Source of the DNA: an uncultured Flavobacterium sp.
GTDB taxonomy: Bacteria > Bacteroidota > Bacteroidia > Flavobacteriales > Flavobacteriaceae
Length of the DNA: 64,000 bases
Assembly (NCBI GenBank): GCA_963513565.1
Contig: CAUPRE010000017.1
Location: 7,445 to 71,444, forward strand
Direction: 5' to 3'
The notes below the pieces were generated by a model. The model had not been told where the DNA came from. It did not search any database and saw only the letters and a program-made list of their open reading frames with translations. How positions within the stretch are numbered: position 1 is the stretch's first letter; every line of letters starts with the position of its first letter. Positions 15,905 to 59,537 of the stretch are shown here, piece after piece. The position numbers and the translations under genes are program-made.

Positions 15905-17152
15905 TTAGATTTCGGCAGATTGAAACCCTAAACTTTTTAAATCTGTCCAAAAATCAGGGTATGACTTTGAAACCACTTCGGCATTGTTGATTATGATTGG
16001 AACACGCAAAGCTAATGGAGCAAAAGCCATTGCCATACGATGATCGTTATACGTATCTATCGCGATATTTGGCAAAATAGTACTAGTAGGTTCCAAAGTC
16101 AAACTATCGTTAGTAACAGTAATGGCTGCGCCTAATTTTGTTAGTTCAATTCGAAGGGCTTCCAAGCGATCCGTTTCTTTAATTTTTAGGGTATGTAATC
16201 CCGTTAAATGACAGCCTATACCAAGTCCCAAACAAGTAACAACAATGGTTTGCGCAATATCTGGTGTATTATTCAAATCGAAAGTAACCGATTGATAATC
16301 GAAATTAGGCTGCTTTACCAAGGTCAGTTTATTTTCTTCAAAACGAGCCTCGACTCCCATTTTGGCGTAGATTTCAACCAAAGCCGAATCGCCTTGCAAA
16401 CTTGATTCTTTATAGCTACTCAATACGATAACGGCTTCGTTCGACAAAGCTGCCAAACTGAAAAAGTAAGACGCAGAACTCCAATCGGATTCGACAAGCC
16501 CCCTAGCCCCCGAAGGAGGAACTTCAGCTAATGGCTTAACCACTATTGTATTTCCTTCAAAACTTGTTACTGCGCCAATTTGATTGAGCAAGGCCAATGT
16601 CATTTTGATGTATGGAACAGAAGTAATTTCGCCAACCAAGGTCAATTCGATTCCATTTTCTAATTTTGGAGCCACTAACAAAAGTGCCGAAATGTATTGA
16701 CTACTTACATTGGCAGGAATACTCACTTTGGATTGGGTTATTTTTTGACCTTTGATTCGGATAGGTGGGAATCCCGGTTCTTTTTCGTAATAAATTTTAG
16801 CACCTAATTGTTGCAATGCTTCAACTAATACTTTTATGGGACGCTCAGTCATACGCTGAGAGCCTGTCAAAACTACTTCTTTTCCTTCGCTTACTGCAAA
16901 AAAAGCCGTTAAGAAACGCATGGCAGTTCCTGCATGATGAATATCTATAAGTTGAGAATCAGCACCCGAAAACTGAGTATTCTGCAAGGCTTTGGTCATC
17001 ACTTCCGAATCATCAGAATTGGAAGTATTGTCCAAAACAAGATTGGGATATAATGCCTGCAACAATAACAATCTGTTGGTTTCGCTTTTGGAACCAGTGA
17101 TTGAGATAGTAGCATTGAGATTTGAAATTGCAGAATGTAGTTGTAAATTCAT
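15905..17152 (-). CDS. aroA: 3-phosphoshikimate 1-carboxyvinyltransferase (EPSP synthase)
   Basis: GSKSETNRLLLL, AGTAMRFL and SDWSSASYF motifs. The track start at 17227 is a GTG, so I prefer the ATG at 17152 (MNLQLHS...). Carries an in-frame repeat insertion at 16498..16519. Confidence 0.9.
   Translation of the reverse strand: MNLQLHSAISNLNATISITGSKSETNRLLLLQALYPNLVLDNTSNSDDSEVMTKALQNTQFSGADSQLIDIHHAGTAMRFLTAFFAVSEGKEVVLTGSQRMTERPIKVLVEALQQLGAKIYYEKEPGFPPIRIKGQKITQSKVSIPANVSSQYISALLLVAPKLENGIELTLVGEITSVPYIKMTLALLNQIGAVTSFEGNTIVVKPLAEVPPSGARGLVESDWSSASYFFSLAALSNEAVIVLSSYKESSLQGDSALVEIYAKMGVEARFEENKLTLVKQPNFDYQSVTFDLNNTPDIAQTIVVTCLGLGIGCHLTGLHTLKIKETDRLEALRIELTKLGAAITVTNDSLTLEPTSTILPNIAIDTYNDHRMAMAFAPLALRVPIIINNAEVVSKSYPDFWTDLKSLGFQSAEI
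16498..16519. repeat. family A GC hairpin element (CCTCCTTCGGGGGCTAGGGGGC) inside the aroA CDS
   Basis: The same about 24-nt element occurs at 30830, 41860, 56419 and 59514. Here it is translated in frame as PPSGARGL just before the conserved ESDWSSASYF motif. Confidence 0.85.
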
Positions 17153-21662: not shown

Positions 21663-23576
21663 TTAAATGGTTTTGGTTAAAATTATTTTGGCGTTGTCAT
21701 TTTGACTCACTTGATCCATAAATTGGCGATAGGCGTCATATTCTTTGTTGGTATAAGTCCCCGAGTTCAGCATAAAAATGCGTTTATAGACTAGGCGATT
21801 TGCTTCTTTTTTCTCAAAGGAAACGGTATAAGTGCCAAACTTTGTTTTGCTTTCAAAAGCTAGCGGTACAAAATCTAAAGTAAATCCCGAAGGCAATTCT
21901 AGTACTATTTCATCTTCATCGACAAATCCTCTTGTCACTTCAAAAGGAGTTTTTCGATTACGAATGCGCTTTACACTATTCGACAAACGATTGAAGGCAT
22001 TTACAGTTACCATCATTTTGTCTCCAACTAAAGTGCCGTACTTCTCCGCTGATAATTTGGCATTTTGCGTAAAACGAATGTCTTTTTTATTATTGTCGTG
22101 TGTTACTTTTTCGATCTTCAAATTATGGATACCATCCCAATAATTTTTATAATACTTTTCCTTTTCATCAGGTTGCATTCGTTCTACGTCTGCTTTGGCT
22201 CCGTATTGAGTTCCAGTAGATACGATTTGAATTTCGCCCGAAAAATCGCCATTAGATGCTATTTTATATGACCCTTTACTCAATTGTGAATTCTCATTGG
22301 CAGCATATATTTTAGTATGTACAATTTGTCCACCCTCAGGTTTTATAATCAAAACATCTCGATCGTCTGTAAAATTGGCTTGAAAACCAAAGGGATCGGT
22401 TTGACTAGTACACTCTAACCAAGTATATTTATCGCCAACTGGAATTGTCAAAATGATATGATTTCCTTGCATCGAAACAAAATCGGTCTCAATATTTCTT
22501 CGATAACGGTCTCCATACAAAATAGTATAGTAGGAAGGAATGTCAACTGCTTTGAGTAACGCATGCGTATAATTGGTAAGCGCCTTACAATCACCATATC
22601 CCAAACGATCTACATCCGATGCCAACATGGGTTTCCATCCTCCAATTCCTACTTGTATACTAATGTACCTCACTTTTTGTTGCACATAATCATAGATAAG
22701 CTTTGCTTTTTGTATTGGATCAGTTTCATTACTCACCAAAGTTTTAACTTTAGTAACCGTTTCTGATGGCAAATCTATAGTGTTGTACAAAATTTTACTA
22801 GAATACCATTTTCCAAAGTCTTCCCACGATGCAGCAGTTCCATCTACTCCCTCTAAATGAAAAGATTCCAATCCTAACATCACTTTTGGAAACGTATCCA
22901 TAAAAAAAGGACTATAACTTTCTTCTTTTACGGGCACCATATTCACCGCAGTGTAACTAAGTTGTGTGCTAGTATCGACCGTTTTAGTGATTTGGTTGCT
23001 AGACAAAAGGCATTCTTTTTTCTTAAACCCCAAGTTATCTGGAAAAGTAACATTAAGCACGTTTTTTTCAACTCCTAATAAATAATCAGGCATAGGCAAC
23101 CATTGTGGTAAAAAAGCTGTTGCAGAAGTTTCGGTTTCGCAGTCAAAGATCATCGTAAATGGATAACTCACAGGCGTATAATCAAGATAAAGCACGCGAC
23201 TATCCGAATATAAAGTTCCTCCATCAACTGCACTATGGTCTTTAAAATCTTTCCTCTTTATTTTTTTAATTTCATTACCCACCACATCGATAACTGTGGC
23301 TTGGATATTTGAAATGCTTGTTGATTTATCATAATGAGCATAAGCATCAATGGCCGTTAAGCCCGCTTCATTAAAAACGGTGATAACACGTTTGGTCTTA
23401 ATAGACATTTTTCTTTGGGAAGCAATGACAATATCCAATTGATTCAGACGTATCACAGCATTGGCATTTGTCTTTAAACTATCTGGAATAGAAGTAACAG
23501 GATATTTTACTTCTTGCGCTGAAAGAACATTTAGCGAAAAGCAAATCAAAAACAATACAATAAACTTAAATTTCAT
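21663..23576 (-). CDS. DUF3857 + transglutaminase-like cysteine peptidase domain protein
   Basis: Retains the putative catalytic YGDCKALTNY and QGNHIIL motifs. The signal peptide MKFKFIVLFLICFSLNVLSAQ follows the ATG at 23576; the track start at 23624 adds an unlikely extension. Confidence 0.65.
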   Translation of the reverse strand: MKFKFIVLFLICFSLNVLSAQEVKYPVTSIPDSLKTNANAVIRLNQLDIVIASQRKMSIKTKRVITVFNEAGLTAIDAYAHYDKSTSISNIQATVIDVVGNEIKKIKRKDFKDHSAVDGGTLYSDSRVLYLDYTPVSYPFTMIFDCETETSATAFLPQWLPMPDYLLGVEKNVLNVTFPDNLGFKKKECLLSSNQITKTVDTSTQLSYTAVNMVPVKEESYSPFFMDTFPKVMLGLESFHLEGVDGTAASWEDFGKWYSSKILYNTIDLPSETVTKVKTLVSNETDPIQKAKLIYDYVQQKVRYISIQVGIGGWKPMLASDVDRLGYGDCKALTNYTHALLKAVDIPSYYTILYGDRYRRNIETDFVSMQGNHIILTIPVGDKYTWLECTSQTDPFGFQANFTDDRDVLIIKPEGGQIVHTKIYAANENSQLSKGSYKIASNGDFSGEIQIVSTGTQYGAKADVERMQPDEKEKYYKNYWDGIHNLKIEKVTHDNNKKDIRFTQNAKLSAEKYGTLVGDKMMVTVNAFNRLSNSVKRIRNRKTPFEVTRGFVDEDEIVLELPSGFTLDFVPLAFESKTKFGTYTVSFEKKEANRLVYKRIFMLNSGTYTNKEYDAYRQFMDQVSQNDNAKIILTKTI

Positions 23577-23610
23577 AAAATATATAGGGTTAAATAAAAC
23601 CAAAAAGCAC

Positions 23611-23640
23611 AAAAAAAACCTCAACAGCTTACCGTTGAAG
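23611..23640 (-). terminator. intrinsic terminator downstream of dtd
   Basis: On the minus strand: cttcaacggtaagctgttgagg followed by T8. Lies between dtd and the DUF3857 gene cluster. Confidence 0.55.
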
Positions 23641-23713
23641 TATTTATAATAGATTTGTTTTCTTTAATTTGTGGTAACCAAATATATCGTAATTCTTCTA
23701 ATAAAAAAATAAA

Positions 23714-24166
23714 TTATTCTTTATTTTTTGAGTCTATTTGTATCGTAACTGGGCCATCATTTAACAATAACACTTTCATATCCGCACCAAAAATACCAGT
23801 AGATACTTTTTTTCCTAATTTCGATTCTAGGGCTTTTACAAAACGTTCATACATAGGAATAGCGAAATCTGGTTTTGCAGCTTTGATATATGAAGGGCGA
23901 TTCCCTTTTTTAGTCGCTGCATGAAGTGTAAACTGACTGACCACAAGCACATCTCCTCCAACATCTTGAATAGAAAGATTCATCACCTCATTTTCATCAC
24001 CAAAAATACGAAGCTGGGTAATTTTGGTCACTAACCAATCCATATCTTCTTGAGTATCGGCATCTTCGATTCCCACTAAAACTAATAGCCCTTTTTGGAT
24101 TTCGGCTACTACTTTACCCTCAACAGTTACTGAGGCATGTGCTACTCTTTGGATAATAGTTCTCAA
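23714..24166 (-). CDS. dtd: D-aminoacyl-tRNA deacylase
   Basis: IIQRV..ASV N-terminus plus SQFTLHA and NDGPVTI motifs. 150 aa. Apparent TTG start 2 nt after the stop of the upstream ORF. Confidence 0.9.
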   Translation of the reverse strand: MRTIIQRVAHASVTVEGKVVAEIQKGLLVLVGIEDADTQEDMDWLVTKITQLRIFGDENEVMNLSIQDVGGDVLVVSQFTLHAATKKGNRPSYIKAAKPDFAIPMYERFVKALESKLGKKVSTGIFGADMKVLLLNDGPVTIQIDSKNKE

Positions 24167-24168
24167 AT

Positions 24169-24843
24169 TTATTTATAGTAGTAATTTAACTCTCTCAACT
24201 TATCAATAAGAGAGTTTTTAAATTTGACATAAGAAGGTAATTTTTCTAATTCGGAAATTTCAATTTTTTGACCAATAATTTGATACAAATCAGAAATATT
24301 TAACACTCTATTTCTTCTTCTTTTTGGCAGATCTTCTTTAGACAATCTAATTATATTCTCAATTAGACTTTTGGGATTCGTTATCGCTTCTGGGTTAAGA
24401 TGAATACCTAATTCCGCATCGGTTTTTTCTATTCCAATTTCTTCTTTCAATAGATTTTTATCTGCTAACATCCAAGATTCGGTCATTTGAATTGGAACAA
24501 TTGCTACAATGTGTTTACAATGCATATCATCTTGTAACAAAAGATTTTCTTTAGCAGGAACTATTTTTGATTTAAAAATTAAATCATCAGTTGTAGCATC
24601 AGAATCAGTATGAACGAATAGAAACAAAACACCAAACTTATCAAAAGCAAATCTTGAAGCTTCAATAATCTGTTGATTAAAATTCAATCCAGATTTATTG
24701 ATCGTAATAACCTCTACTTTTGTTTCAAATTCTCCTGCACAATCAAACACAACATCTATTAAAGTCCTTTCGACAACGCTAGATAAAAACCTGACATCAG
24801 TTGTTCCTTCTGTAAAAAGACCCGCAAGAATAAAATTACTCAT
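24169..24843 (-). CDS. Toprim-like (DUF4276-like) putative nuclease, partner of the upstream ATPase
   Basis: 224 aa. The N-terminal LFTEGTTD (Glu12) and FVHTDSD (Asp80-x-Asp82) form a Toprim-type Glu + DxD signature. There is a 3-nt gap to the ATPase ORF. Confidence 0.6.
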   Translation of the reverse strand: MSNFILAGLFTEGTTDVRFLSSVVERTLIDVVFDCAGEFETKVEVITINKSGLNFNQQIIEASRFAFDKFGVLFLFVHTDSDATTDDLIFKSKIVPAKENLLLQDDMHCKHIVAIVPIQMTESWMLADKNLLKEEIGIEKTDAELGIHLNPEAITNPKSLIENIIRLSKEDLPKRRRNRVLNISDLYQIIGQKIEISELEKLPSYVKFKNSLIDKLRELNYYYK

Positions 24844-24846
24844 ATA

Positions 24847-26247
24847 CTAAAAATTTGTCTCTTCAAATTGAGCAGTTTGCAAATAATCATTAACTATTGC
24901 CAAGGTTAACTTCCTGTCTTGTTCAGAAAAAATTAAGCGTAATTGTAAAAGTGAATTATCTTTTATTACCGGACTTATTTTTGTAGAATTTATTTTCAAT
25001 CTATCACCATTAATATCTGAAATTGACGTTCTCATCTGTGCGTACCAAATACTAACGTTTTTATCATTTTTCCAAGTATCCATATTACCAACTAGAACCG
25101 GAGAGTGAGTATTTACTATTACCTGTCTTAAAGGAATTTCTACTTCATTAAAATCAACACTAAGATCTTTTAATAATTCAGTCATTGCTCTAATTCTAAA
25201 AGGATGTATACCATTTTCTGGCTCTTCAAAACATAATAAACCAGTATGCTTTTCATCAAACTCTAAAATACACAAAGCTAAAATTCTTAAAGTCCCTTCT
25301 GACAAAACTCTGGAAGAAAACTCTTTTTTATCAACATCTTTAAGTTTAATTAAATACTGTTTGTTCTCATTGTCATCAACTACATCAACTTCTGTAAAGT
25401 TTGGCAAAAAACTATTAAGCTTTCTCGATATTTCTTTCAATGAATACTTATCATTTTGTTTAATTCTAAACAATGCAGCTGCTAAGTTTTTTCCACTAAC
25501 AGAAATTGTATCTTCTCCGTTGTTTTTACTTGTTGCCTGACGCAAATCTTCAGGGTTTAATTGCAAAAACTTCCAGCTCTTCATTTCTTCTTTAGCAGCC
25601 AAAACGTGTGGAAAATCGATTGTGTCAAAACTGCTCAAAACAGTTCTCGTTGCATTACTTAGAGGAAATCTTCTTTTATTACCTGTTGTACCATCTTGAG
25701 GAACTTGAATAATATCTAAATTATTTTCATTAACAGTTTCAATATATGGTATTCCTCTTTTACCTGTTCCAACTTTTGGCCTCCAATACTCTAAAGATTT
25801 CTTAGGTATGCTAATACTTACCCATATGTCATCTTGATGATTTAATTTTAATAGATTCTCTTTTGAAACGACTAAATCTTGAATCCCTGATACGTTTGTA
25901 ATTCTTTTAATTGACAACTCATATCTCAATCTTGTATATTTTAATTTAGCCTCATTACCCCAAGCATCTTTTATGTTTTTATTAACCAACATTTCTACAA
26001 CAAATTCCATTTCTGTTGCGTAGTTGTCATCACCATATTGCGTAAATAATTCGATAAACTCACCTCTTTGTTCACCAAAAGCCCTTTTTAAATTATCGGT
26101 TTCTGCTAATCTTGATAATAATGTTAATGCGTCAAATAAATTACTTTTACCAGAAGCATTAGCACCAGCAATCACAGTAAAAGGAGCAAATTCCATTTCA
26201 AAATTATGAAAGGACTTAAAGCCATTTATTTTTATATATGTTATCAT
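24847..26247 (-). CDS. AAA_15/AAA_21 (ABC/SMC-like) family ATPase, putative defence-system component
   Basis: Walker A GANASGKS (aa 28-35), signature-like LSEGT, Walker B LLCFEEPENGIHP and H-loop NTHSP. The N-terminus I.I.NFKSF is typical of OLD/AriA/GajA-type ATPases. Confidence 0.75.
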   Translation of the reverse strand: MITYIKINGFKSFHNFEMEFAPFTVIAGANASGKSNLFDALTLLSRLAETDNLKRAFGEQRGEFIELFTQYGDDNYATEMEFVVEMLVNKNIKDAWGNEAKLKYTRLRYELSIKRITNVSGIQDLVVSKENLLKLNHQDDIWVSISIPKKSLEYWRPKVGTGKRGIPYIETVNENNLDIIQVPQDGTTGNKRRFPLSNATRTVLSSFDTIDFPHVLAAKEEMKSWKFLQLNPEDLRQATSKNNGEDTISVSGKNLAAALFRIKQNDKYSLKEISRKLNSFLPNFTEVDVVDDNENKQYLIKLKDVDKKEFSSRVLSEGTLRILALCILEFDEKHTGLLCFEEPENGIHPFRIRAMTELLKDLSVDFNEVEIPLRQVIVNTHSPVLVGNMDTWKNDKNVSIWYAQMRTSISDINGDRLKINSTKISPVIKDNSLLQLRLIFSEQDRKLTLAIVNDYLQTAQFEETNF

Positions 26248-26313
26248 TTTATGTGCATTAATTAATTTTAAATTAAAATCTTATGCAATATAATAAAATT
26301 AAAAGTATCCGAT

Positions 26314-27291
26314 TTACTCCCTCGTTTTATCACTAGCTTTTCTGTCTTCATCATAGGAATCAACACGGTAATGTTCGTCGTCGCCTTCTAATATTTTCAG
26401 GTAACTGTTATAACGCGACCAAGCAATTTCATCTTTTTCTAAGGCGGCCTTTATAGCACAATGTGGCTCTTCTTTATGCAAACAATTGTTGAACTTACAC
26501 TGTTCTTTCAATCTAAAAAATTCAGGAAAATAATCGCTAATTTCTTGAGGCTCCATATCGACAATTCCAAAACCTTTGATCCCTGGTGTATCAATAATAC
26601 TAGCATTAAAAGACAAATCGTACATCTCTGCAAAAGTGGTGGTATGCTGTCCTTGCTTGCTTGCTACCGAAATAGTTTTCGTTTTCAAATCTAAGCTCGG
26701 CTCCAAAGCATTAACCAAAGTCGATTTACCTACACCTGAATGCCCCGAGAACATACTTGTGTTGCCTAACATTAATGCTTTCAAAGCGTCAACTCCTTTA
26801 CCTTCAGCAGCCGAAACGCGCAAACATTGATACCCAATTTCTTGATACACATGTTGCATGTACAACTGTTCGTCTAAAGTGACTTCATCTAAAGTATCAA
26901 TTTTGTTAAAAACTAAAATAGTCTCAATGCCATACGCCTCTGCAGTCACCAAAAAACGATCAATAAAATTAAAAGTCGTAGGAGGATTATTGACAGTAAT
27001 TAAAAGAAAAACACGATCAATATTGGCTGCAATAATGTGCATTTGATGCGACAAATTCACCGATTTTCGAACGATATAATTTTTTCGATCATGGATATGA
27101 TGAATCGTCCCAGTAATGGTATCCGAAGTTTCATCTTGTTCATAATCCACCATATCGCCAACTGCAATAGGATTGGTACTTTTAATGCCTTTCATTCGGA
27201 ACTTCCCTTTCATTCTGCACTCTATAAAATCACCTTGTTCGGATTTTACAGTATACCAACTTCCTGTAGATTTATATACGGTTCCTGTCAT
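26314..27291 (-). CDS. rsgA: ribosome small subunit-dependent GTPase A
   Basis: Circularly permuted GTPase motifs (NKIDT, then GHSGVGKSTLVNAL, then DTPG) and a C-terminal zinc knuckle CKFNNCLHKEEPHC. Confidence 0.9.
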   Translation of the reverse strand: MTGTVYKSTGSWYTVKSEQGDFIECRMKGKFRMKGIKSTNPIAVGDMVDYEQDETSDTITGTIHHIHDRKNYIVRKSVNLSHQMHIIAANIDRVFLLITVNNPPTTFNFIDRFLVTAEAYGIETILVFNKIDTLDEVTLDEQLYMQHVYQEIGYQCLRVSAAEGKGVDALKALMLGNTSMFSGHSGVGKSTLVNALEPSLDLKTKTISVASKQGQHTTTFAEMYDLSFNASIIDTPGIKGFGIVDMEPQEISDYFPEFFRLKEQCKFNNCLHKEEPHCAIKAALEKDEIAWSRYNSYLKILEGDDEHYRVDSYDEDRKASDKTRE

Positions 27292-27390
27292 ATAGGATTC
27301 TTGAGTTTTAATTAACGCTTTTAGATTTATGATTTATAACCTAAAAGTTTTGCAAAGATAAATGATTTTAAACGACTTCAAGACAAACAA

Positions 27391-27420
27391 AAAATCCCAA
27401 AACAAAGGTCTTGGGATTTT
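27391..27420 (-). terminator. intrinsic terminator at the end of the aromatic amino acid operon
   Basis: aaaatcccaaaac / gtcttgggatttt hairpin with flanking A/T runs, just downstream of the DAHP synthase stop (27458). Confidence 0.6.
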
Positions 27421-27457
27421 AATCAGAAATTAAAAAAATAAGCGTAATGAAATCCTT

Positions 27458-28540
27458 TTACGAATTCAATACTTTATCTTGTTTGTTGATACTTTCTTGG
27501 TGAATTGCTTTGAACATTTTTAAAACAAACTCTTCCGAAAGTCCTTTCTTTTCTCCTTCCAAAATCATTTTGCCTAAAATTTCATTCCAACGATTGTTTT
27601 GCAAAACCGCCACGTTTGCTTCTTTTTTCACCTGTCCAATTTCTACAGCCACTTTCATTCTTTTGCTCAAAAGCTCCAATAAATTAGCATCTAATACATC
27701 GATATTCGCTCTTAATTTACTCATTTTAGTCATAAACTCATCCGAAACATCGATTTGTTTTCTAACTCTCAAATCTTTGAAAATTTGTTTCAAAGCATCT
27801 GGCGTTACTTGTTGCGCAGCATCACTCCAAGCATTATCAGGGTCTGTGTGAGTTTCAATAATCATTCCGTCATAATTCAAATCCAAAGCTTCTTGCGTCA
27901 CTTCAAGAATCATATCACGATTTCCAGTAATGTGAGAAGGATCAATAATCAAAGGCAAATCTGGGAATTTGTTTTGCAATTCAATCGCAATTTGCCATTC
28001 TGGGATGTTTCTGTATTTTGTTTTTTCGTAAGTAGAAAAACCACGGTGAATCACCCCTAATTTTTCAATTCCGGCCATATGCAAACGCTCTACACCACCT
28101 AACCACAAAGCTAAATCTGGGTTCACTGGATTTTTAATCAAAACAATTTTGTCTGTCCCTTTCAAGGTATCTGCAATTTCTTGAACCGCAAACGGATTGG
28201 CCGTAGTACGTGCCCCAACCCATAATACATCAATATCATTTTCTAAAGCCAATTTACAGTGAGCAGCAGTAGCTACCTCGGTTCCCATTAACAAACCTGT
28301 TTCTGCTTTGGCTTTTTTCAACCATTTCAATCCTATTTCTCCAACGCCTTCAAATCCACCTGGACGCGTTCTTGGTTTCCAAATTCCAGCTCTAAACACA
28401 CTTACATCAGAATCTTTCAATTCGTGTGCAATTTTCAATACTTGCTCTTCTGTTTCGGCGCTACAAGGTCCTGCTATCACCAATGGATGCGTCAAATTGA
28501 ACGCTTCCAACCAATTTCTCATTTCTTTCTTGTTTTCCAT
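27458..28540 (-). CDS. bifunctional 3-deoxy-7-phosphoheptulonate synthase / chorismate mutase
   Basis: KDO8P/DAHP synthase type I-beta core (AGPCS.E, FRAG.WKPRT, DPSH) with a C-terminal chorismate mutase type II helix bundle (RANIDVLDANLLELLSKRMKVAVEIG). Confidence 0.88.
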   Translation of the reverse strand: MENKKEMRNWLEAFNLTHPLVIAGPCSAETEEQVLKIAHELKDSDVSVFRAGIWKPRTRPGGFEGVGEIGLKWLKKAKAETGLLMGTEVATAAHCKLALENDIDVLWVGARTTANPFAVQEIADTLKGTDKIVLIKNPVNPDLALWLGGVERLHMAGIEKLGVIHRGFSTYEKTKYRNIPEWQIAIELQNKFPDLPLIIDPSHITGNRDMILEVTQEALDLNYDGMIIETHTDPDNAWSDAAQQVTPDALKQIFKDLRVRKQIDVSDEFMTKMSKLRANIDVLDANLLELLSKRMKVAVEIGQVKKEANVAVLQNNRWNEILGKMILEGEKKGLSEEFVLKMFKAIHQESINKQDKVLNS

Positions 28541-40864: not shown

Positions 40865-41914
40865 TTACATCACCGCAGTCGAAACCCTCGGCTTATACTC
40901 CTTAGCGATATCCGCAATTAATTTGATGTGTTCTGGGGTGGTGCCGCAGCAGCCTCCTATGATGTTGATTAAATTATCTTCTAAATAAGAACGAATTTGC
41001 GCTTGCATTTCCTCAGGCGTTTCGTCGTATTCTCCAAAGGCATTAGGCAATCCCGCATTAGGATGCGCCGAAATATTGAAAGAGGTATTATGCGACAAAT
41101 TTTGCAAATACGGCTTGAGCAAATCGGCGCCCAAAGCGCAATTGAATCCTACACTCAACAACGGAATGTGCGAAACCGAAATCAAGAAAGCCTCAACGGT
41201 TTGTCCAGAAAGTGTTCTTCCTGAAGCATCGGTGATGGTTCCAGAAACCATAATCGGTACATCGATGTTGCGTTCTTCTTTGACTTCTTCGATGGCAAAA
41301 AGTGCGGCTTTGGCATTCAAGGTGTCGAAAATAGTTTCTACCAAAAGAATGTCAGAACCTCCATCCAACAAGGCTTCGACTTGTTGTTTGTAAGCGATAC
41401 GTAAATCATCAAAAGTTACCGCTCGGTATCCTGGGTCATTCACATCGGGTGACATACTTGCGGTTCTGTTTGTGGGTCCAATGGAACCTGCTACAAAACG
41501 TGGTTGGTCTGGATTTTTGGCGGTGAATGCATCGGCTACTTCACGGGCTAATTTAGCGGATTCGTAGTTGAGTTCGTATACCAAATCCTCCAAATGATAG
41601 TCGGCCATTCCGATGGTGGTTCCTGAAAAGGTATTGGTTTCTACAATATCGGCTCCTGCCTCAAAATAGGCGGCGTGCACGGCTTTGATGGCCTGTGGTT
41701 GCGTGAGGGACAATAAATCATTGTTCCCTTTTAACGGATGTGGGAAATCTTTGAATCGTTCGCCACGAAAATCTTCTTCGGAGAAATTGTAGCGTTGCAA
41801 CATCGTTCCCATCGCTCCGTCGAGCACGAGAATTCTTTTTTTTATAGCTTCCCAAATAAGCCCCCTAGCCCCCGAAGGGGGAACTCCTATCGTATCTTTT
41901 AAATCTTTTGACAT
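40865..41914 (-). CDS. homocysteine S-methyltransferase domain protein (N-terminal module of split MetH)
   Basis: [15 protein letters not shown] and [11 protein letters not shown] zinc-ligand motifs. I prefer the ATG at 41914 because the track start at 41947 is a TTG. The N-terminus contains a translated family A repeat (VPPSGARGL). Confidence 0.88.
41860..41882. repeat. family A GC hairpin element inside the 5' end of the Hcy methyltransferase CDS
   Basis: gccccctagcccccgaaggggga. In frame it encodes PPSGARGL between the ATG (41914) and the conserved KKRILVLDG core. Confidence 0.85.
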
Positions 41915-52080: not shown

Positions 52081-52956
52081 TTAATTTTTCAAGAATGTTA
52101 TACTTGCTTTTTCGTTTGACTTTAAACTTGTTTTTAAATCAAATGTTCTTTCTCCATCAACAATTTTAATAGTCACAGTATTTAATCCTTTATCCCCTTG
52201 ATTCAATGCTTCTATTTTAAAAATGTGATTCCCTTTACTAAGAAACAAAGGGATTCTTTTCTTTGTATTTAGTATAGTATAGTTAGATAAAATAATCCTA
52301 TCATCTTGATATAAATTTATCTTATCTCCATCTTCATTTTCTGAATCAAAAATTTCTATTTCAACTGATTCAGACTTCACAAAAACATTTAAATTTTGAT
52401 CTTTAACTAAATTGTTCACTTTTAGGCTATCGAGTAAACTAATTGGATTAGCCTTTGCTTTAGTAGTAACATCCAATTTCTTGCTCTTCTGTATTTTATT
52501 ATTTACTTTATTAAGTACTTTATAAATTCTCTCTGATCCTACTAATGTAATTGTACCATTAATACATTTTCTTTTATTTTTATAAAGTCCCGTAAAATCA
52601 CCATCGATTTTGGTTGTCTTGTCATTAAGCTTCACTTTTCCATTAAAATTAACAAAACAAAAACTCTTTTCTGAAAATGTAGATTTTGTGTATAAAATAT
52701 CATCTTCTTTAAATTCTAAAATCTTATTTTTATTATCAAAAGTACCTGAAATGGAGTTTTTAGTTTCATTATCACCACCCAAATCAGTAATTGAATATCC
52801 ATTTATTTTATTATTAGATAGTTCAAAAACCAAGCGATAGGTTATTAAAGTTTTATCATTTCCATTCAACTTCAAACCACCAAAAAACTCGAATCTTTTT
52901 TGTGAATAATTTTTGAAACAAAAAAATAGAAGAATTAAAAAACATATTTTTCTCAT
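52081..52956 (-). CDS. hypothetical exported protein (291 aa)
   Basis: Signal peptide MRKICFLILLFFCFKNYSQ. Lys/Asn-rich and very AT-rich coding sequence. I recognise no family. Confidence 0.55.
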   Translation of the reverse strand: MRKICFLILLFFCFKNYSQKRFEFFGGLKLNGNDKTLITYRLVFELSNNKINGYSITDLGGDNETKNSISGTFDNKNKILEFKEDDILYTKSTFSEKSFCFVNFNGKVKLNDKTTKIDGDFTGLYKNKRKCINGTITLVGSERIYKVLNKVNNKIQKSKKLDVTTKAKANPISLLDSLKVNNLVKDQNLNVFVKSESVEIEIFDSENEDGDKINLYQDDRIILSNYTILNTKKRIPLFLSKGNHIFKIEALNQGDKGLNTVTIKIVDGERTFDLKTSLKSNEKASITFLKN

Positions 52957-53011: not shown

Positions 53012-53386
53012 ATGAAACTAAAATTTTTATTATCAATGATTGCGTTGTTATTTATAACATCGTTTTCTACGTATGCATCATTCCCTGTTGAGCAAGCAAC
53101 AAAAAACGGGACAACTCAAAGTACAATTACTAAATCTACTAATGATGATGATGAACTCTCATCTCCAGCTGCAGCTGCATCAGGCAAAAGCCAAGTTACA
53201 GCCTTAATTCTTGCTATTTTAATAGGGGGAATTGGAATTCATCGTTTTTACTTAGGCTATACTTGGCAAGGTATAGTTCAACTATTAACACTAGGCGGTT
53301 GTGGTATTTGGTCATTAATAGATTTAATTAGAATTATTACTGGCGATCTTCAACCAAAAAACGGTAACTATACCGAAACGCTATAG
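53012..53386 (+). CDS. TM2 domain-containing protein
   Basis: Signal peptide, Thr/Ser-rich linker, then the TM2 hairpin GKSQVTALILAILIGGIGIHRFYLGYTWQGIVQLLTLGGCGIWSLIDLIRI. Confidence 0.8.
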   Translation: MKLKFLLSMIALLFITSFSTYASFPVEQATKNGTTQSTITKSTNDDDELSSPAAAASGKSQVTALILAILIGGIGIHRFYLGYTWQGIVQLLTLGGCGIWSLIDLIRIITGDLQPKNGNYTETL

Positions 53387-53886: not shown

Positions 53887-54261
53887 ATGAGAAAACAATT
53901 TTTATTTTCGCTGATTGTATTATTTTTCATCTCTTCGTTTACCTCTTACGCCTCATTTCCTGTAGAAAATAGAGCAACAAGTAATACGACAAGTCAAACC
54001 ACCATTACAAATGCAACTGAAAAAGAAGAGCTTGTTTCACCAGCAATACTTGGTTCTGGCAAAAGTCAAGTTGCAGCACTAATTCTTTGTGTTTTTGTGG
54101 GAGTACTAGGAATACATCGTTTTTATCTTGGCTATACTTGGCAAGGTATTGTTCAATTACTCACTTTGGGAGTATTTGGAATTTGGACATTGATTGATCT
54201 TATCAGAATTATTACTGGTGATTTACAACCTAAAGGAGGAAGTTACTCCAAAACTTTGTAA
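53887..54261 (+). CDS. TM2 domain-containing protein (paralog)
   Basis: The C-terminal 70 aa are nearly identical to 53012..53386 (GKSQVAALILCVFVGVLGIHRFYLGYTWQGIVQLLTLGVFGIWTLIDLIRIITGDLQPK). Confidence 0.8.
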   Translation: MRKQFLFSLIVLFFISSFTSYASFPVENRATSNTTSQTTITNATEKEELVSPAILGSGKSQVAALILCVFVGVLGIHRFYLGYTWQGIVQLLTLGVFGIWTLIDLIRIITGDLQPKGGSYSKTL

Positions 54262-59513: not shown

Positions 59514-59537
59514 TCCCCCTTCGGGGGCTAGGGGGCT
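59514..59537. repeat. family A GC hairpin element immediately 3' of the thrA stop
   Basis: tcccccttcgggggctagggggct. The thrA stop codon is at 59539..59541. Confidence 0.8.

What the first reader, a model, noticed from the sequence alone, without database searches (positions are those of the whole stretch)
24169..26247. ATPase + Toprim-like (DUF4276-like) gene pair wedged between rsgA and dtd: candidate uncharacterised anti-phage/abortive-infection module
Two tightly coupled minus-strand ORFs (3-nt gap) sit between two translation housekeeping genes, rsgA (26314..27291) and dtd (23714..24166). All four genes are on the same strand and are followed by a single terminator at 23611..23640. ORF1 (466 aa) has the full ABC/SMC-like motif set of AAA_15/AAA_21 ATPases: Walker A GANASGKS, LSEGT, Walker B LLCFEEPENGIHP and NTHSP. 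This is the ATPase type found in PARIS AriA, Gabija GajA, AbiL, Septu PtuA and OLD nucleases. ORF2 (224 aa) carries Glu12 in LFTEGTTD and Asp80-x-Asp82 in HTDSD, a Toprim-type metal-binding signature. Its length and N-terminus match my memory of DUF4276. ATPase + Toprim-nuclease pairs are a recurrent immune architecture, but I know of no experimentally characterised system with this exact partner domain. The pair looks more AT-rich than its flanks by eye (not computed). dtd now starts at a TTG only 2 nt after the ORF2 stop, as expected if a cassette was inserted into an older rsgA-dtd junction.
Basis: partly seen in the sequence, partly recalled or inferred. Interest (0 to 1): 0.85.

Follow-up and report, generated by a model that had tools for sequence, protein, structure and literature searches.

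The report
Known candidate phage-defence pair, HEC-01
Two coupled genes (an ABC-type ATPase and a small DUF4276/Toprim-like putative nuclease) sit between rsgA and dtd in this Flavobacterium; they belong to the already catalogued candidate anti-phage system HEC-01, are present in only a few related species, and still have no known mechanism.

Summary
The pair is not unnamed. Both proteins match PADLOC's HEC-01A and HEC-01B models over their full length (E=8e-143 and 2.5e-61). HEC-01 is an ABC ATPase + TOPRIM/DUF4276 candidate defined by Payne et al. 2024, who saw no defence in E. coli. A cold-seep homologue later protected against at least one of T4/T5/T7. Only 4 of the 80 nearest Flavobacterium species genomes carry the pair at the rsgA|dtd junction, and the closest relatives lack it. 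At least 5 gain/loss events are needed. One carrier has a pseudogenised ORF2. The same junction alternatively holds a 23S-rRNA-IVP gene or a small inverted-repeat element. Relatives in other Bacteroidota and on Streptomyces plasmids keep the ATPase+DUF4276 pairing but sit in unrelated contexts, one inside a helicase/methylase/endonuclease system. The link to rsgA/dtd is therefore positional, not functional. E12, D80, D82 and E122 are conserved family-wide and sit after strands 1, 3 and 4 of a confident model, but my Foldseek match to the OLD Toprim region was weak (E=0.025, TM 0.37-0.39). Most likely mechanism: a PARIS/OLD-like ATPase sensor controlling a Toprim nuclease. This is inferred, not shown. 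The dtd TTG-start argument fails. Interest is modest.

The parts
24847..26247 (-). ORF1, 466 aa: ABC/SMC-type ATPase (HEC-01A). Walker A G28-ANASGKS-35, signature-like LSEGT (315-319), Walker B LLCFEE (337-342), H-loop NTHSP (379-383)
   Evidence: ORF and translation; AAA_21 4.1e-29, AAA_15 1.4e-22, above the gathering score; PADLOC HEC-01A PDLC04184, E=7.9e-143, residues 1-462 on model 1-463/464; motif residues invariant in the alignment; dN/dS 0.03-0.09
24169..24843 (-). ORF2, 224 aa: DUF4276 / Toprim-like putative nuclease (HEC-01B). Putative metal-binding residues E12, D80, D82, E122
   Evidence: HEC-01B PDLC04212, E=2.5e-61, full length; DUF4276: window protein 23.2 bits, below the cut-off; 47 of 47 homologues hit; conservation; AF2 pLDDT 87.9; E12 after strand 1, DxD after strand 3, E122 after strand 4; dN/dS 0.09-0.24
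26248..26313 (-). 66-nt AT-rich (15% GC) spacer between the rsgA stop and the ORF1 start; left edge of the cassette. Conserved in L006, L007 and L034; only 18 nt in L084
24164..24171 (-). Right edge of the cassette: ORF2 stop TAA, 2 nt, then the dtd TTG start. In L069 the equivalent junction is TAATG, the same stop/start overlap that rsgA and dtd have in empty sites
26314..27291 (-). rsgA (flanking core gene, upstream, same strand)
   Evidence: RsgA_GTPase 9.5e-54, RsgA_N 3.7e-16
23714..24166 (-). dtd (flanking core gene, downstream, same strand, TTG start)
   Evidence: (Tyr_Deacylase 3e-61)
23618..23641 (-). Terminator-like hairpin followed by a T-run, downstream of dtd; predicted end of the rsgA-ORF1-ORF2-dtd unit
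   Evidence: sequence
27391..27420 (-). Terminator-like hairpin upstream of rsgA, after the DAHP synthase/chorismate mutase gene; predicted upstream boundary of the unit

Best explanation
The pair is a stand-alone member of the HEC-01 family, a two-gene accessory module made of an ABC-type (AAA_15/21) ATPase and a DUF4276 Toprim-like metal-dependent nuclease. It occupies a variable hotspot between the core genes rsgA and dtd and is probably transcribed with them. The most likely function is anti-phage (abortive-infection-type) defence, working like PARIS and other OLD-family systems. In that model the ATPase oligomer holds the small nuclease inactive and senses an infection cue in an ATP-dependent way. 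The nuclease is then released or activated and cuts nucleic acid (tRNA/RNA or DNA), which stops growth of the infected cell. Shown here: family identity, domain content, tight gene coupling, conservation of catalytic-type residues, purifying selection, accessory and patchy distribution, and independence from genomic context. Inferred by analogy: complex formation, the trigger, the substrate and the defence phenotype itself.
For: Family identity: PADLOC HEC-01A E=7.9e-143 and HEC-01B E=2.5e-61, both full length. ATPase: Pfam AAA_21 and AAA_15 above the gathering score. DUF4276: all 47 homologues hit it and nothing else. Catalytic-type residues: E12, G13, E122 and K158 are invariant, and D80, D82, H78 and D16 are at least 90% conserved, across 109 representatives at 28-74% identity. 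In a confident AF2 model (pLDDT 87.9, pTM 0.85) they follow strands 1, 3 and 4 of a beta-alpha core, which is the Toprim placement described for DUF4276 in PMC12065111 and for HEC-01B against BpOLD by Payne et al.. Accessory behaviour: present in 4 of the 80 nearest species genomes and absent from the nearest relatives L001-L005. At least 5 state changes on a flanking-gene tree. ORF2 is a pseudogene in F. restrictum L034. Low GC, z about -2. Cassette dS is 2-4 times lower than that of its flanks among close carriers. Functional constraint: dN/dS is 0.03-0.09 for ORF1 and 0.09-0.24 for ORF2. Autonomy: the ATPase+DUF4276 adjacency is kept in unrelated contexts in Bacteroides, Arcicella, Thermoflexibacter, Emticicia, a gut Bacteroidales contig and Streptomyces plasmids. 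In Spirosoma it is embedded between a SNF2 helicase/N6_N4 methyltransferase and a ResIII/RE endonuclease. Experimental precedent: one HEC-01 protected E. coli B against at least one of T4/T5/T7. In MADS, deleting the methyltransferase mad5 is lethal unless mad2 or mad3 (the ATPase homologue) is also deleted, and mad3 and mad4 deletions reduce defence. The PARIS mechanism is the analogy used.
Against: The HEC-01 tested by Payne et al. gave no protection against any phage in their panel. The positive cold-seep result is a spot assay, and the text gives no fold-change for HEC-01. No phenotype exists for this subfamily or in a Flavobacterium host. My Foldseek search gave no PDB hit at E<=1e-3, and OLD Toprim (6nk8_B) appeared only at rank 10 (E=0.025, TM 0.37-0.39), among generic alpha/beta folds. 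Profile searches of PDB sequences found nothing. The locus is not in a defence island, because all neighbours are housekeeping genes. The ATPase is unusually conserved for an immune sensor: 85-98% identity within Flavobacterium and 64-79% to other orders. No viral-contig copies were found.
Confidence: 0.65

Rival explanations
1. The pair is a dependent or selfish module rather than an autonomous defence system. It could be an accessory effector that only works together with a methyltransferase/helicase system, as Mad3-Mad4 do inside MADS or HEC-01 inside Hma, and is an orphan here. Or it could be a toxin-antitoxin-like addiction cassette that persists through post-segregational toxicity.
For: The HEC-01 family was discovered embedded in Hma systems, and the tested one gave no defence on its own. 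Mad3/Mad4 are accessory parts of an 8-gene system, and mad3 is needed for the lethality of methyltransferase loss. The Spirosoma relative sits inside a helicase/methylase/endonuclease operon. Pfam describes AAA_21 as 'putative AbiEii toxin, Type IV TA system'. ORF2 alone is pseudogenised in L034 while ORF1 stays intact, a pattern that fits loss of a toxic effector.
Against: Most contexts sampled have no methylase or helicase partner: Flavobacteriales, Bacteroides, Arcicella, Thermoflexibacter, Emticicia and Streptomyces. Even so, both genes are under strong purifying selection there. Payne et al. shortlisted candidates precisely because they are also common outside Hma. A stand-alone HEC-01 construct gave some protection.
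Confidence: 0.2
2. The pair has a housekeeping role tied to translation. It would be co-expressed with rsgA (30S maturation GTPase) and dtd (D-aminoacyl-tRNA deacylase) and act on rRNA or tRNA, since Toprim RNases such as RNase M5 process rRNA and PARIS AriB cuts tRNA.
For: All four genes are on one strand with no predicted terminator between them. Every Flavobacteriales carrier examined has the pair in exactly this position with tight or overlapping junctions. ORF1 evolves as slowly as RsgA.
Against: It is absent from 76 of the 80 closest species genomes, including those with 97-98% identical RsgA, where rsgA and dtd abut or overlap directly (TAATG). At least 5 gains or losses are needed. ORF2 is a pseudogene in L034. 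Relatives in other orders sit in contexts unrelated to translation. The same junction alternatively carries unrelated cargo.
Confidence: 0.07
3. The pair is a DNA repair or recombination module: an SMC/RecF-like ATPase with a Toprim nuclease that processes DNA ends or junctions for the host.
For: ORF1's only PDB sequence matches are SMC heads, and Pfam SMC_N and NCBIfam RecF match its N-terminus. A Bacteroidales relative lies directly upstream of ruvB and near a DNA alkylation repair gene.
Against: Those matches cover only the P-loop region and fall far below family thresholds. The ruvB adjacency is seen in one lineage only. Patchy, hotspot-type distribution and low GC are not expected of a repair function.
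Confidence: 0.05

Closest known systems
HEC-01 (PADLOC 'Hma-embedded candidate 01'; Payne et al. 2024, bioRxiv 10.1101/2024.01.29.577857)
   Same: The same two-gene architecture (ABC ATPase followed by a TOPRIM/DUF4276 protein). Both proteins match the PADLOC HEC-01A and HEC-01B models over their full length.
   Different: Here the pair stands alone between housekeeping genes and is not embedded in an Hma system. The homologue tested by Payne et al. showed no defence, and this Flavobacteriales subfamily has not been tested.
MADS Mad3-Mad4 (methylation-associated defence system, Pseudomonas aeruginosa)
   Same: An AAA_15/21 ATPase plus a DUF4276 homologue. PMC12065111 calls Mad4 a DUF4276 homologue, and the PARIS paper lists MADS3-4 among ABC ATPase + TOPRIM systems. 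ORF1 hits the MAD3 models.
   Different: ORF1 scores 172.9 bits against NCBIfam MAD3, whose cut-off is 420. None of the other six mad genes (methyltransferase, specificity and regulatory genes and so on) is nearby. MADS is an 8-gene methylation-based system.
PARIS (AriA ABC ATPase + AriB DUF4435 Toprim nuclease)
   Same: A two-gene ABC ATPase + small Toprim-type nuclease layout of similar sizes, with conserved Walker A Lys and Toprim Glu. It is the best-understood mechanistic model: ATP-dependent trigger sensing releases the nuclease, which cleaves tRNA-Lys.
   Different: The partner domain is DUF4276, not DUF4435, and ORF2 hits no AriB model. ORF1 matches only generic AriA/AAA_21-type models at about 1e-30, against 1e-143 for HEC-01A. 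No PARIS protein appears among PDB sequence hits.
OLD-family nucleases and Gabija GajA (class 1 and class 2 OLD)
   Same: An ABC ATPase combined with a Toprim nuclease carrying E and DxD metal ligands. BpOLD (6nk8) was the highest-TM Toprim hit of the ORF2 model and is the reference Payne et al. used for HEC-01B.
   Different: In OLD and GajA the ATPase and Toprim are fused in one polypeptide (and Gabija adds the GajB helicase), whereas here they are separate genes. Structural similarity in my search was weak (TM 0.37-0.39, E=0.025).
Menshen (NsnABC) variants with a DUF4276 C-terminal domain in NsnC
   Same: The same DUF4276 Toprim-like predicted effector, together with an ABC ATPase (NsnB; ORF1 hits the NsnB model at 1.5e-19). 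See PMC12065111.
   Different: Menshen is a three-gene system with NsnA and a multidomain NsnC. Here the DUF4276 protein is a free-standing 224-aa protein and no NsnA or NsnC is present.

Membership tests
HEC-01 (PADLOC candidate system) | Gene A matches a HEC-01A (ABC ATPase) model | tested here: met
   PDLC04184 E=7.9e-143, 474.8 bits, protein 1-462 on model 1-463/464
HEC-01 (PADLOC candidate system) | Gene B matches a HEC-01B (TOPRIM/DUF4276) model | tested here: met
   PDLC04212 E=2.5e-61, protein 5-221 on model 4-220/222
HEC-01 (PADLOC candidate system) | The two genes are adjacent and on the same strand | tested here: met
   3-nt gap, both on the minus strand. The same adjacency occurs in all 15 or more relatives inspected
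HEC-01 (PADLOC candidate system) | Anti-phage phenotype | not testable with these tools
   The literature is mixed: no defence in E. coli MG1655 deltaRM; protection against at least one of T4/T5/T7 for a cold-seep homologue
DUF4276 (Pfam PF14103) | Score at or above the Pfam gathering cut-off (30.2 bits) | tested here: inconclusive
   The window ORF2 scores 23.2 bits, E=9.3e-5, below the cut-off. All 47 aligned homologues hit DUF4276 at E<=0.01 (best 2.9e-10) and no other family. Most close homologues carry a precomputed PF14103 hit
Toprim superfamily | Conserved Glu at the end of strand 1 | tested here: met
   E12 is invariant in 109 diverse representatives and lies directly after strand 4-11 of the model
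Toprim superfamily | Conserved DxD after strand 3 | tested here: met
   D80 and D82 are invariant in A1 and at least 90% conserved in A5, directly after strand 74-78
Toprim superfamily | Three-layer alpha/beta fold with a four-stranded sheet (order 2-1-3-4) superposable on known Toprim domains | tested here: inconclusive
   The model has the order b1-a1-b2-a2-b3-a3-b4. Foldseek against the PDB gave no hit at E<=1e-3, and OLD 6nk8_B was rank 10 (E=0.025, prob 0.72, TM 0.37/0.39). I could not read the strand order in space. Published comparisons assert Toprim
ABC/SMC-type ATPases (Pfam AAA_15/AAA_21) | Walker A, signature-like motif, Walker B and H-loop, plus a Pfam score above the gathering cut-off | tested here: met
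   AAA_21 103.1 bits (cut-off 27) and AAA_15 81.3 bits (cut-off 32.1). G28, K34, S35, S316, G318, E341, E342 and H381 are invariant in alignments A2 and A3. Structural confirmation failed (AF2 pLDDT 48)
PARIS | Partner is AriB (DUF4435 Toprim), and AriA-specific similarity | tested here: not met
   ORF2 hits only HEC-01B and PDC-M25B models, with no AriB or DUF4435 hit. ORF1's AriA hits (about 1e-30 and 1e-24) are far weaker than its HEC-01A hit and coincide with the generic AAA_21/AAA_15 profiles
MADS | MAD3 equivalog score, and the presence of the mad methyltransferase and other mad genes | tested here: not met
   NCBIfam MAD3 172.9 bits against a cut-off of 420. The neighbours are rsgA, dtd, aromatic amino-acid genes and DUF3857/transglutaminase genes
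OLD / Gabija | ATPase and Toprim fused in one protein (plus the GajB helicase for Gabija) | tested here: not met
   They are separate ORFs. Old and GajA models match only the N-terminal P-loop of ORF1. No helicase is adjacent

The most novel reading that the evidence does not exclude
This Flavobacteriales HEC-01 lineage is locked to the rsgA|dtd junction, appears to be co-transcribed with those two translation-quality genes, and has an ATPase that evolves as slowly as RsgA. It may therefore not sense fast-evolving phage proteins at all. It might instead monitor a conserved host translation state (ribosome assembly or tRNA charging) and respond with a Toprim RNase acting on tRNA or rRNA. That would be a 'guard' type of immune or stress module wired into translation surveillance. 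A related point: the junction itself may be a recombination-driven hotspot that exchanges three unrelated cargos without any integrase.
Probability: 0.1. Interest if true: 0.6.

Novelty: new member of a known kind. Interest (0 to 1): 0.3.

Why it matters
HEC-01 is among the more abundant candidate defence systems in environmental genomes (top 12 in cold-seep genomes). Its mechanism is unknown and its experimental record is contradictory. This locus adds no new kind of system, but it offers a clean natural experiment. The same compact cassette is present or absent at one defined core-genome junction across many Flavobacterium species, with one natural effector knockout. That would allow isogenic comparisons in a native host that has its own phages, which the published E. 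coli tests lacked. It also shows that defence candidates can hide as single islets inside housekeeping operons, outside defence islands.

Tried and rejected
- Foldseek of the confident ORF2 model against the PDB and BFVD gave no significant hit. OLD Toprim was recovered only weakly, so I do not claim independent confirmation of the fold.
- Profile searches of PDB sequences with shallow (A1) and deep (A5) DUF4276 alignments returned only spurious hits.
- The AF2 model of ORF1 from a shallow alignment failed (pLDDT 48, pTM 0.36). I did not run a fold search on this model.
- phmmer of ORF1 against the PDB matched only SMC-head P-loops.
- A scan of viral contigs for this subfamily found nothing. 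The one 'phage' record hit (MT836135.1) turned out to be a bacterial chromosome fragment.
- The dtd TTG start as a scar of insertion is rejected, because 16 of 75 empty sites also use TTG.
- Flanking direct or inverted repeats and target-site duplications: only short AT-rich chance matches. There are no integrase or transposase genes nearby.
- The sigma-70 promoter scan was no better than shuffles (22 found vs 22.0 expected) and does not suit Bacteroidota promoters, so I make no promoter claim.
- A functional link to rsgA/dtd was considered and largely rejected on distribution and on the contexts of distant relatives.
- The lower cassette dS relative to its flanks is suggestive of exchange but not conclusive. 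The whole region is a mosaic (aroG-like 96%, rsgA 86%, dtd 90%, downstream gene 74% DNA identity to L007), and the cassette is compositionally biased.
Full report
**1. Checking the observation**

- ORF1 is 24847..26247(-), 466 aa.
- ORF2 is 24169..24843(-), 224 aa, 3 nt downstream of ORF1.
- dtd is 23714..24166(-) and starts at a TTG 2 nt after the ORF2 stop (sequence).
- rsgA is 26314..27291(-).

Pfam confirms the flanking genes (RsgA_GTPase 9.5e-54, Tyr_Deacylase 3e-61). It places ORF1 in AAA_21 (4.1e-29) and AAA_15 (1.4e-22), both above the gathering score. The quoted motifs are present at the stated residues in the translations.

A terminator-like hairpin plus T-run lies at 23641-23618(-) after dtd. 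Another lies at 27420-27391(-) before rsgA, and there is none in between. The four genes therefore form one predicted unit.

GC is 0.302 and 0.290 against a mean of 0.365 (sd 0.034) for 49 window ORFs. That gives z=-1.85 and -2.19, the second and third lowest values. GC3 is 0.206 and 0.191, against 0.325 for rsgA.

**2. What the pair is**

PADLOC-DB gives a direct answer. ORF1 matches HEC-01A model PDLC04184 at E=7.9e-143 over its whole length, and ORF2 matches HEC-01B model PDLC04212 at E=2.5e-61.

HEC-01 is one of nine 'Hma-embedded candidates' defined by Payne et al. (bioRxiv 10.1101/2024.01.29.577857). They describe it as an ABC ATPase associated with a TOPRIM protein. They report structural similarity of HEC-01B to TOPRIM domains and a conserved metal site when it is aligned to B. 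pseudomallei OLD. They found no protection against any phage tested in E. coli.

A later survey of cold-seep genomes reported that one randomly chosen HEC-01 gene cluster protected E. coli B against at least one of T4, T5 and T7 in spot assays. The text gives no fold-change for it (PMC12881386). Other authors still treat HEC-01 as unvalidated.

DUF4276 has been assigned to the Toprim superfamily, with Mad4 of MADS named as a homologue (PMC12065111). The PARIS structure paper adds 'MADS3-4' and AbiL to the ABC-ATPase + TOPRIM systems (PMC11464382).

It remains fair to say that the mechanism is unknown.

**3. ORF2**

The window protein scores 23.2 bits against Pfam DUF4276, below the 30.2-bit cut-off. 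However, all 47 aligned homologues hit DUF4276 and nothing else (best 2.9e-10).

An exhaustive profile search found 898 clusters (at 50% identity) with E<=1e-3. Almost all are free-standing proteins of about 220 aa. Conservation across 109 representatives at 28-74% identity is:
- invariant: E12, G13, E122, K158;
- at least 90% conserved: T15, D16, H78, D80, D82, W124, D128.

AlphaFold2 gave a confident model (pLDDT 87.9, pTM 0.85). It has a b1-a1-b2-a2-b3-a3-b4 core followed by a helical C-terminal half. E12 directly follows strand 1, D80-x-D82 follows strand 3, and E122 follows strand 4. That is the Toprim arrangement.

My own fold search was weak, however. No PDB hit reached E<=1e-3. The OLD C-terminal (Toprim) region 6nk8_B came at rank 10 (E=0.025, TM 0.37/0.39) among generic alpha/beta folds such as PurE and lumazine synthase. 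BFVD and PDB sequence-profile searches added nothing. I therefore score the Toprim motifs as met and the fold as inconclusive in my hands.

**4. ORF1**

The ABC-type motif residues are invariant across homologues. ORF1's only PDB sequence matches are the P-loop region of SMC heads. NCBIfam MAD3 scores 172.9 bits against a cut-off of 420. A structure prediction from the available shallow alignment failed (pLDDT 48), so I made no structural placement among AriA, GajA and OLD.

**5. Is it an accessory cassette?**

I fetched the 80 species-representative genomes with the most similar RsgA; all are Flavobacterium or close relatives.
- The pair lies between rsgA and dtd in only four: L006, L007 (Flavobacterium sp. 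RSSB_23), L034 (F. restrictum) and L069 (F. zhoui).
- It is absent from the nearest relatives L001-L005, whose RsgA is 94-98% identical.
- In empty sites rsgA and dtd are separated by a short spacer, or overlap as TAATG (L001, L004, L051, L058, L071).
- In L069 the cassette ends in the same TAATG overlap with dtd.
- On a neighbour-joining tree of RsgA plus the upstream DAHP-synthase gene (70 complete loci), the five carriers each have a non-carrier sister, so at least 5 state changes are needed. The caveat is that this is an unsupported NJ tree built from genes that themselves recombine.

The same junction holds other cargo. In 12 genomes it carries a gene of about 120 aa of the 23S_rRNA_IVP family (PF05635, 7.1e-27), which needs at least 9 changes on the tree. 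In L002, L003 and L005 it carries a 134-162-bp element with G/C-rich terminal inverted repeats. The junction is therefore a hotspot.

F. restrictum carries an in-frame stop at about codon 53 of ORF2 while ORF1 is intact. Elsewhere both genes are under purifying selection: dN/dS is 0.03-0.09 for ORF1 and 0.09-0.24 for ORF2.

Among the closest carriers, cassette dS (0.08-0.26) is 2-4 times lower than that of rsgA (0.36-1.01) and dtd (0.42-0.53). This hints at exchange of the cassette between lineages. I do not rely on it, because the region is a mosaic and the cassette is compositionally biased.

I found no flanking repeats and no mobility genes. Exchange by homologous recombination in the conserved flanks is the simplest route, but that is an inference.

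**6. Is the link to rsgA/dtd functional?**

All Flavobacteriales homologues I looked up at 69-74% ORF2 identity sit in exactly the same position (L081, L084, L086). That raised the possibility of a translation-related role. More distant relatives argue against it.

| Relative | Locus | Context of the ATPase+DUF4276 pair |
|---|---|---|
| Gut Bacteroidales contig (deposited as 'Bacteriophage sp.') | L088 | upstream of ruvB |
| Bacteroides | L090-L092 | between an aldose epimerase and a GH32 gene |
| Arcicella | L093 | between an aspartokinase/homoserine dehydrogenase gene and a GHMP kinase gene |
| Thermoflexibacter | L094 | next to RND efflux genes |
| Emticicia | L096 | near IS110 and Fic |
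| Spirosoma | L095 | between a SNF2 helicase/N6_N4 methyltransferase and a ResIII/RE endonuclease, next to a transposase |
| Streptomyces plasmids | L089 | among PKS, lectin and polymorphic-toxin genes |

The pairs tested (Spirosoma, Arcicella and Streptomyces) hit the same HEC-01 models. The constant feature is the ATPase-DUF4276 pairing, not the neighbourhood. The Spirosoma context is of the embedded kind through which the family was first found.

**7. Mechanism**

I commit to the PARIS/OLD-type model. ORF1 oligomers bind and restrain ORF2. ATP-dependent recognition of an infection cue then releases or activates the nuclease, which degrades tRNA/RNA or DNA and arrests the infected cell. In PARIS, an AriA hexamer holds three AriB subunits, the Ocr trigger releases AriB, and the AriB dimer cleaves tRNA-Lys.

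MADS genetics fit an ATPase-dependent toxic activity that methylation holds in check. There, loss of the methyltransferase is lethal unless mad2 or mad3 is also deleted.

For this locus, only the parts list, the conservation of catalytic-type residues and the accessory behaviour are shown. The complex, trigger, substrate and phenotype are inferred.

One feature fits poorly with a rapidly co-evolving sensor. The ATPase is far better conserved than its partner. Within Flavobacterium the figures are 85-98% for ORF1 and 68-95% for ORF2. Against other orders they are 64-79% for the ATPase and 43-56% for the DUF4276 partner.

**8. Verdict**

The novelty is low: this is a new member of an already catalogued candidate family. 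The useful additions are:
- the site-locked hotspot behaviour in Flavobacteriales;
- a natural ORF2 knockout in F. restrictum;
- the asymmetry in conservation between the ATPase and its partner.

Interest is 0.3.

Noticed in passing
L002:7979-8112, L003:7979-8139, L005:7979-8140; window 16497-16519(-), 41859-41881(-), 59515-59537(+): In three close relatives the empty rsgA|dtd junction holds a 134-162-bp element bounded by G/C-rich inverted repeats (AGCCCC(C)TAGCCCCC ... GGGGGTTAGGGGGCT), which looks like a MITE or REP-type element. Its terminal motif occurs 3 times in the window, against 0 expected from shuffles.
   Followed up: partly
L012:7979-8404 and the same junction in L014, L038, L040, L041, L045, L049, L054, L059, L060, L066, L079: Twelve Flavobacterium genomes carry a gene of about 120 aa of the 23S_rRNA_IVP / four-helix-bundle family (PF05635, E=7.1e-27) in the same rsgA|dtd junction. 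It needs at least 9 gain/loss events on the flanking-gene tree. In L054 the frame is open for only 89 aa. Eight of these 12 loci also have a TTG start on dtd.
   Followed up: partly
L034:9445-10115 (Flavobacterium restrictum LB1R34): ORF2 has an in-frame premature stop at about codon 53 (...EIISSKKQE*), while the adjacent ATPase is intact and 90% identical to the window's. This is a natural knockout of the effector.
   Followed up: yes
window 24169-26247 compared with L088, L090, L093-L096: The ATPase is far more conserved than its DUF4276 partner: 64-79% against 43-56% identity between orders of Bacteroidota, and 94% against 74% for L084. This is unusual if the ATPase is a fast-evolving sensor of phage proteins.
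   Followed up: partly
L088 (GenBank MT836135.1, 'UNVERIFIED: Bacteriophage sp.'): This 12.6-kb record in the phage collection encodes DNA alkylation repair, RuvB, DUF389, peptidase S46 and a Bro-N protein, and no phage hallmark genes among the ORFs I scanned. It looks like a Bacteroidales chromosome fragment that was misfiled as phage.
   Followed up: partly
L084 (GCA_030053945.1, labelled Limnohabitans sp. MAG); L066 (labelled Klebsiella pneumoniae MAG): These contigs have Flavobacteriales gene content and 86-94% identity to the window's proteins but carry proteobacterial labels. They are probably mis-binned contigs.
   Followed up: no
window 52081-52956(-): This is the most AT-rich ORF in the window (291 aa, GC 0.247, z=-3.5) and has no Pfam or PADLOC hit. 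It may be another accessory gene. Next to it are two paralogous 124-aa TM2-domain genes at 53012-53386(+) and 53887-54261(+).
   Followed up: partly
window 21663-28540 compared with L001-L007: DNA identity to the closest relatives is strongly mosaic gene by gene: aroG-like 95-97%, rsgA 86-92%, dtd 78-90%, and the downstream DUF3857/transglutaminase gene 70-77%. This indicates frequent recombination across the region.
   Followed up: partly
window 23576-23641: The mechanical ORF 21663..23624 starts at a TTG that lies inside the dtd terminator hairpin. The real start of this DUF3857/transglutaminase gene is more likely the ATG of 'MKFKFIVLF' about 48 nt downstream.
   Followed up: no
L093:1769-7661 (Arcicella aquatica): Here the HEC-01 pair sits between a bifunctional aspartokinase/homoserine dehydrogenase gene and a GHMP-kinase (homoserine-kinase-like) gene. 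This is a second case of the cassette lying between housekeeping genes on the same strand.
   Followed up: no
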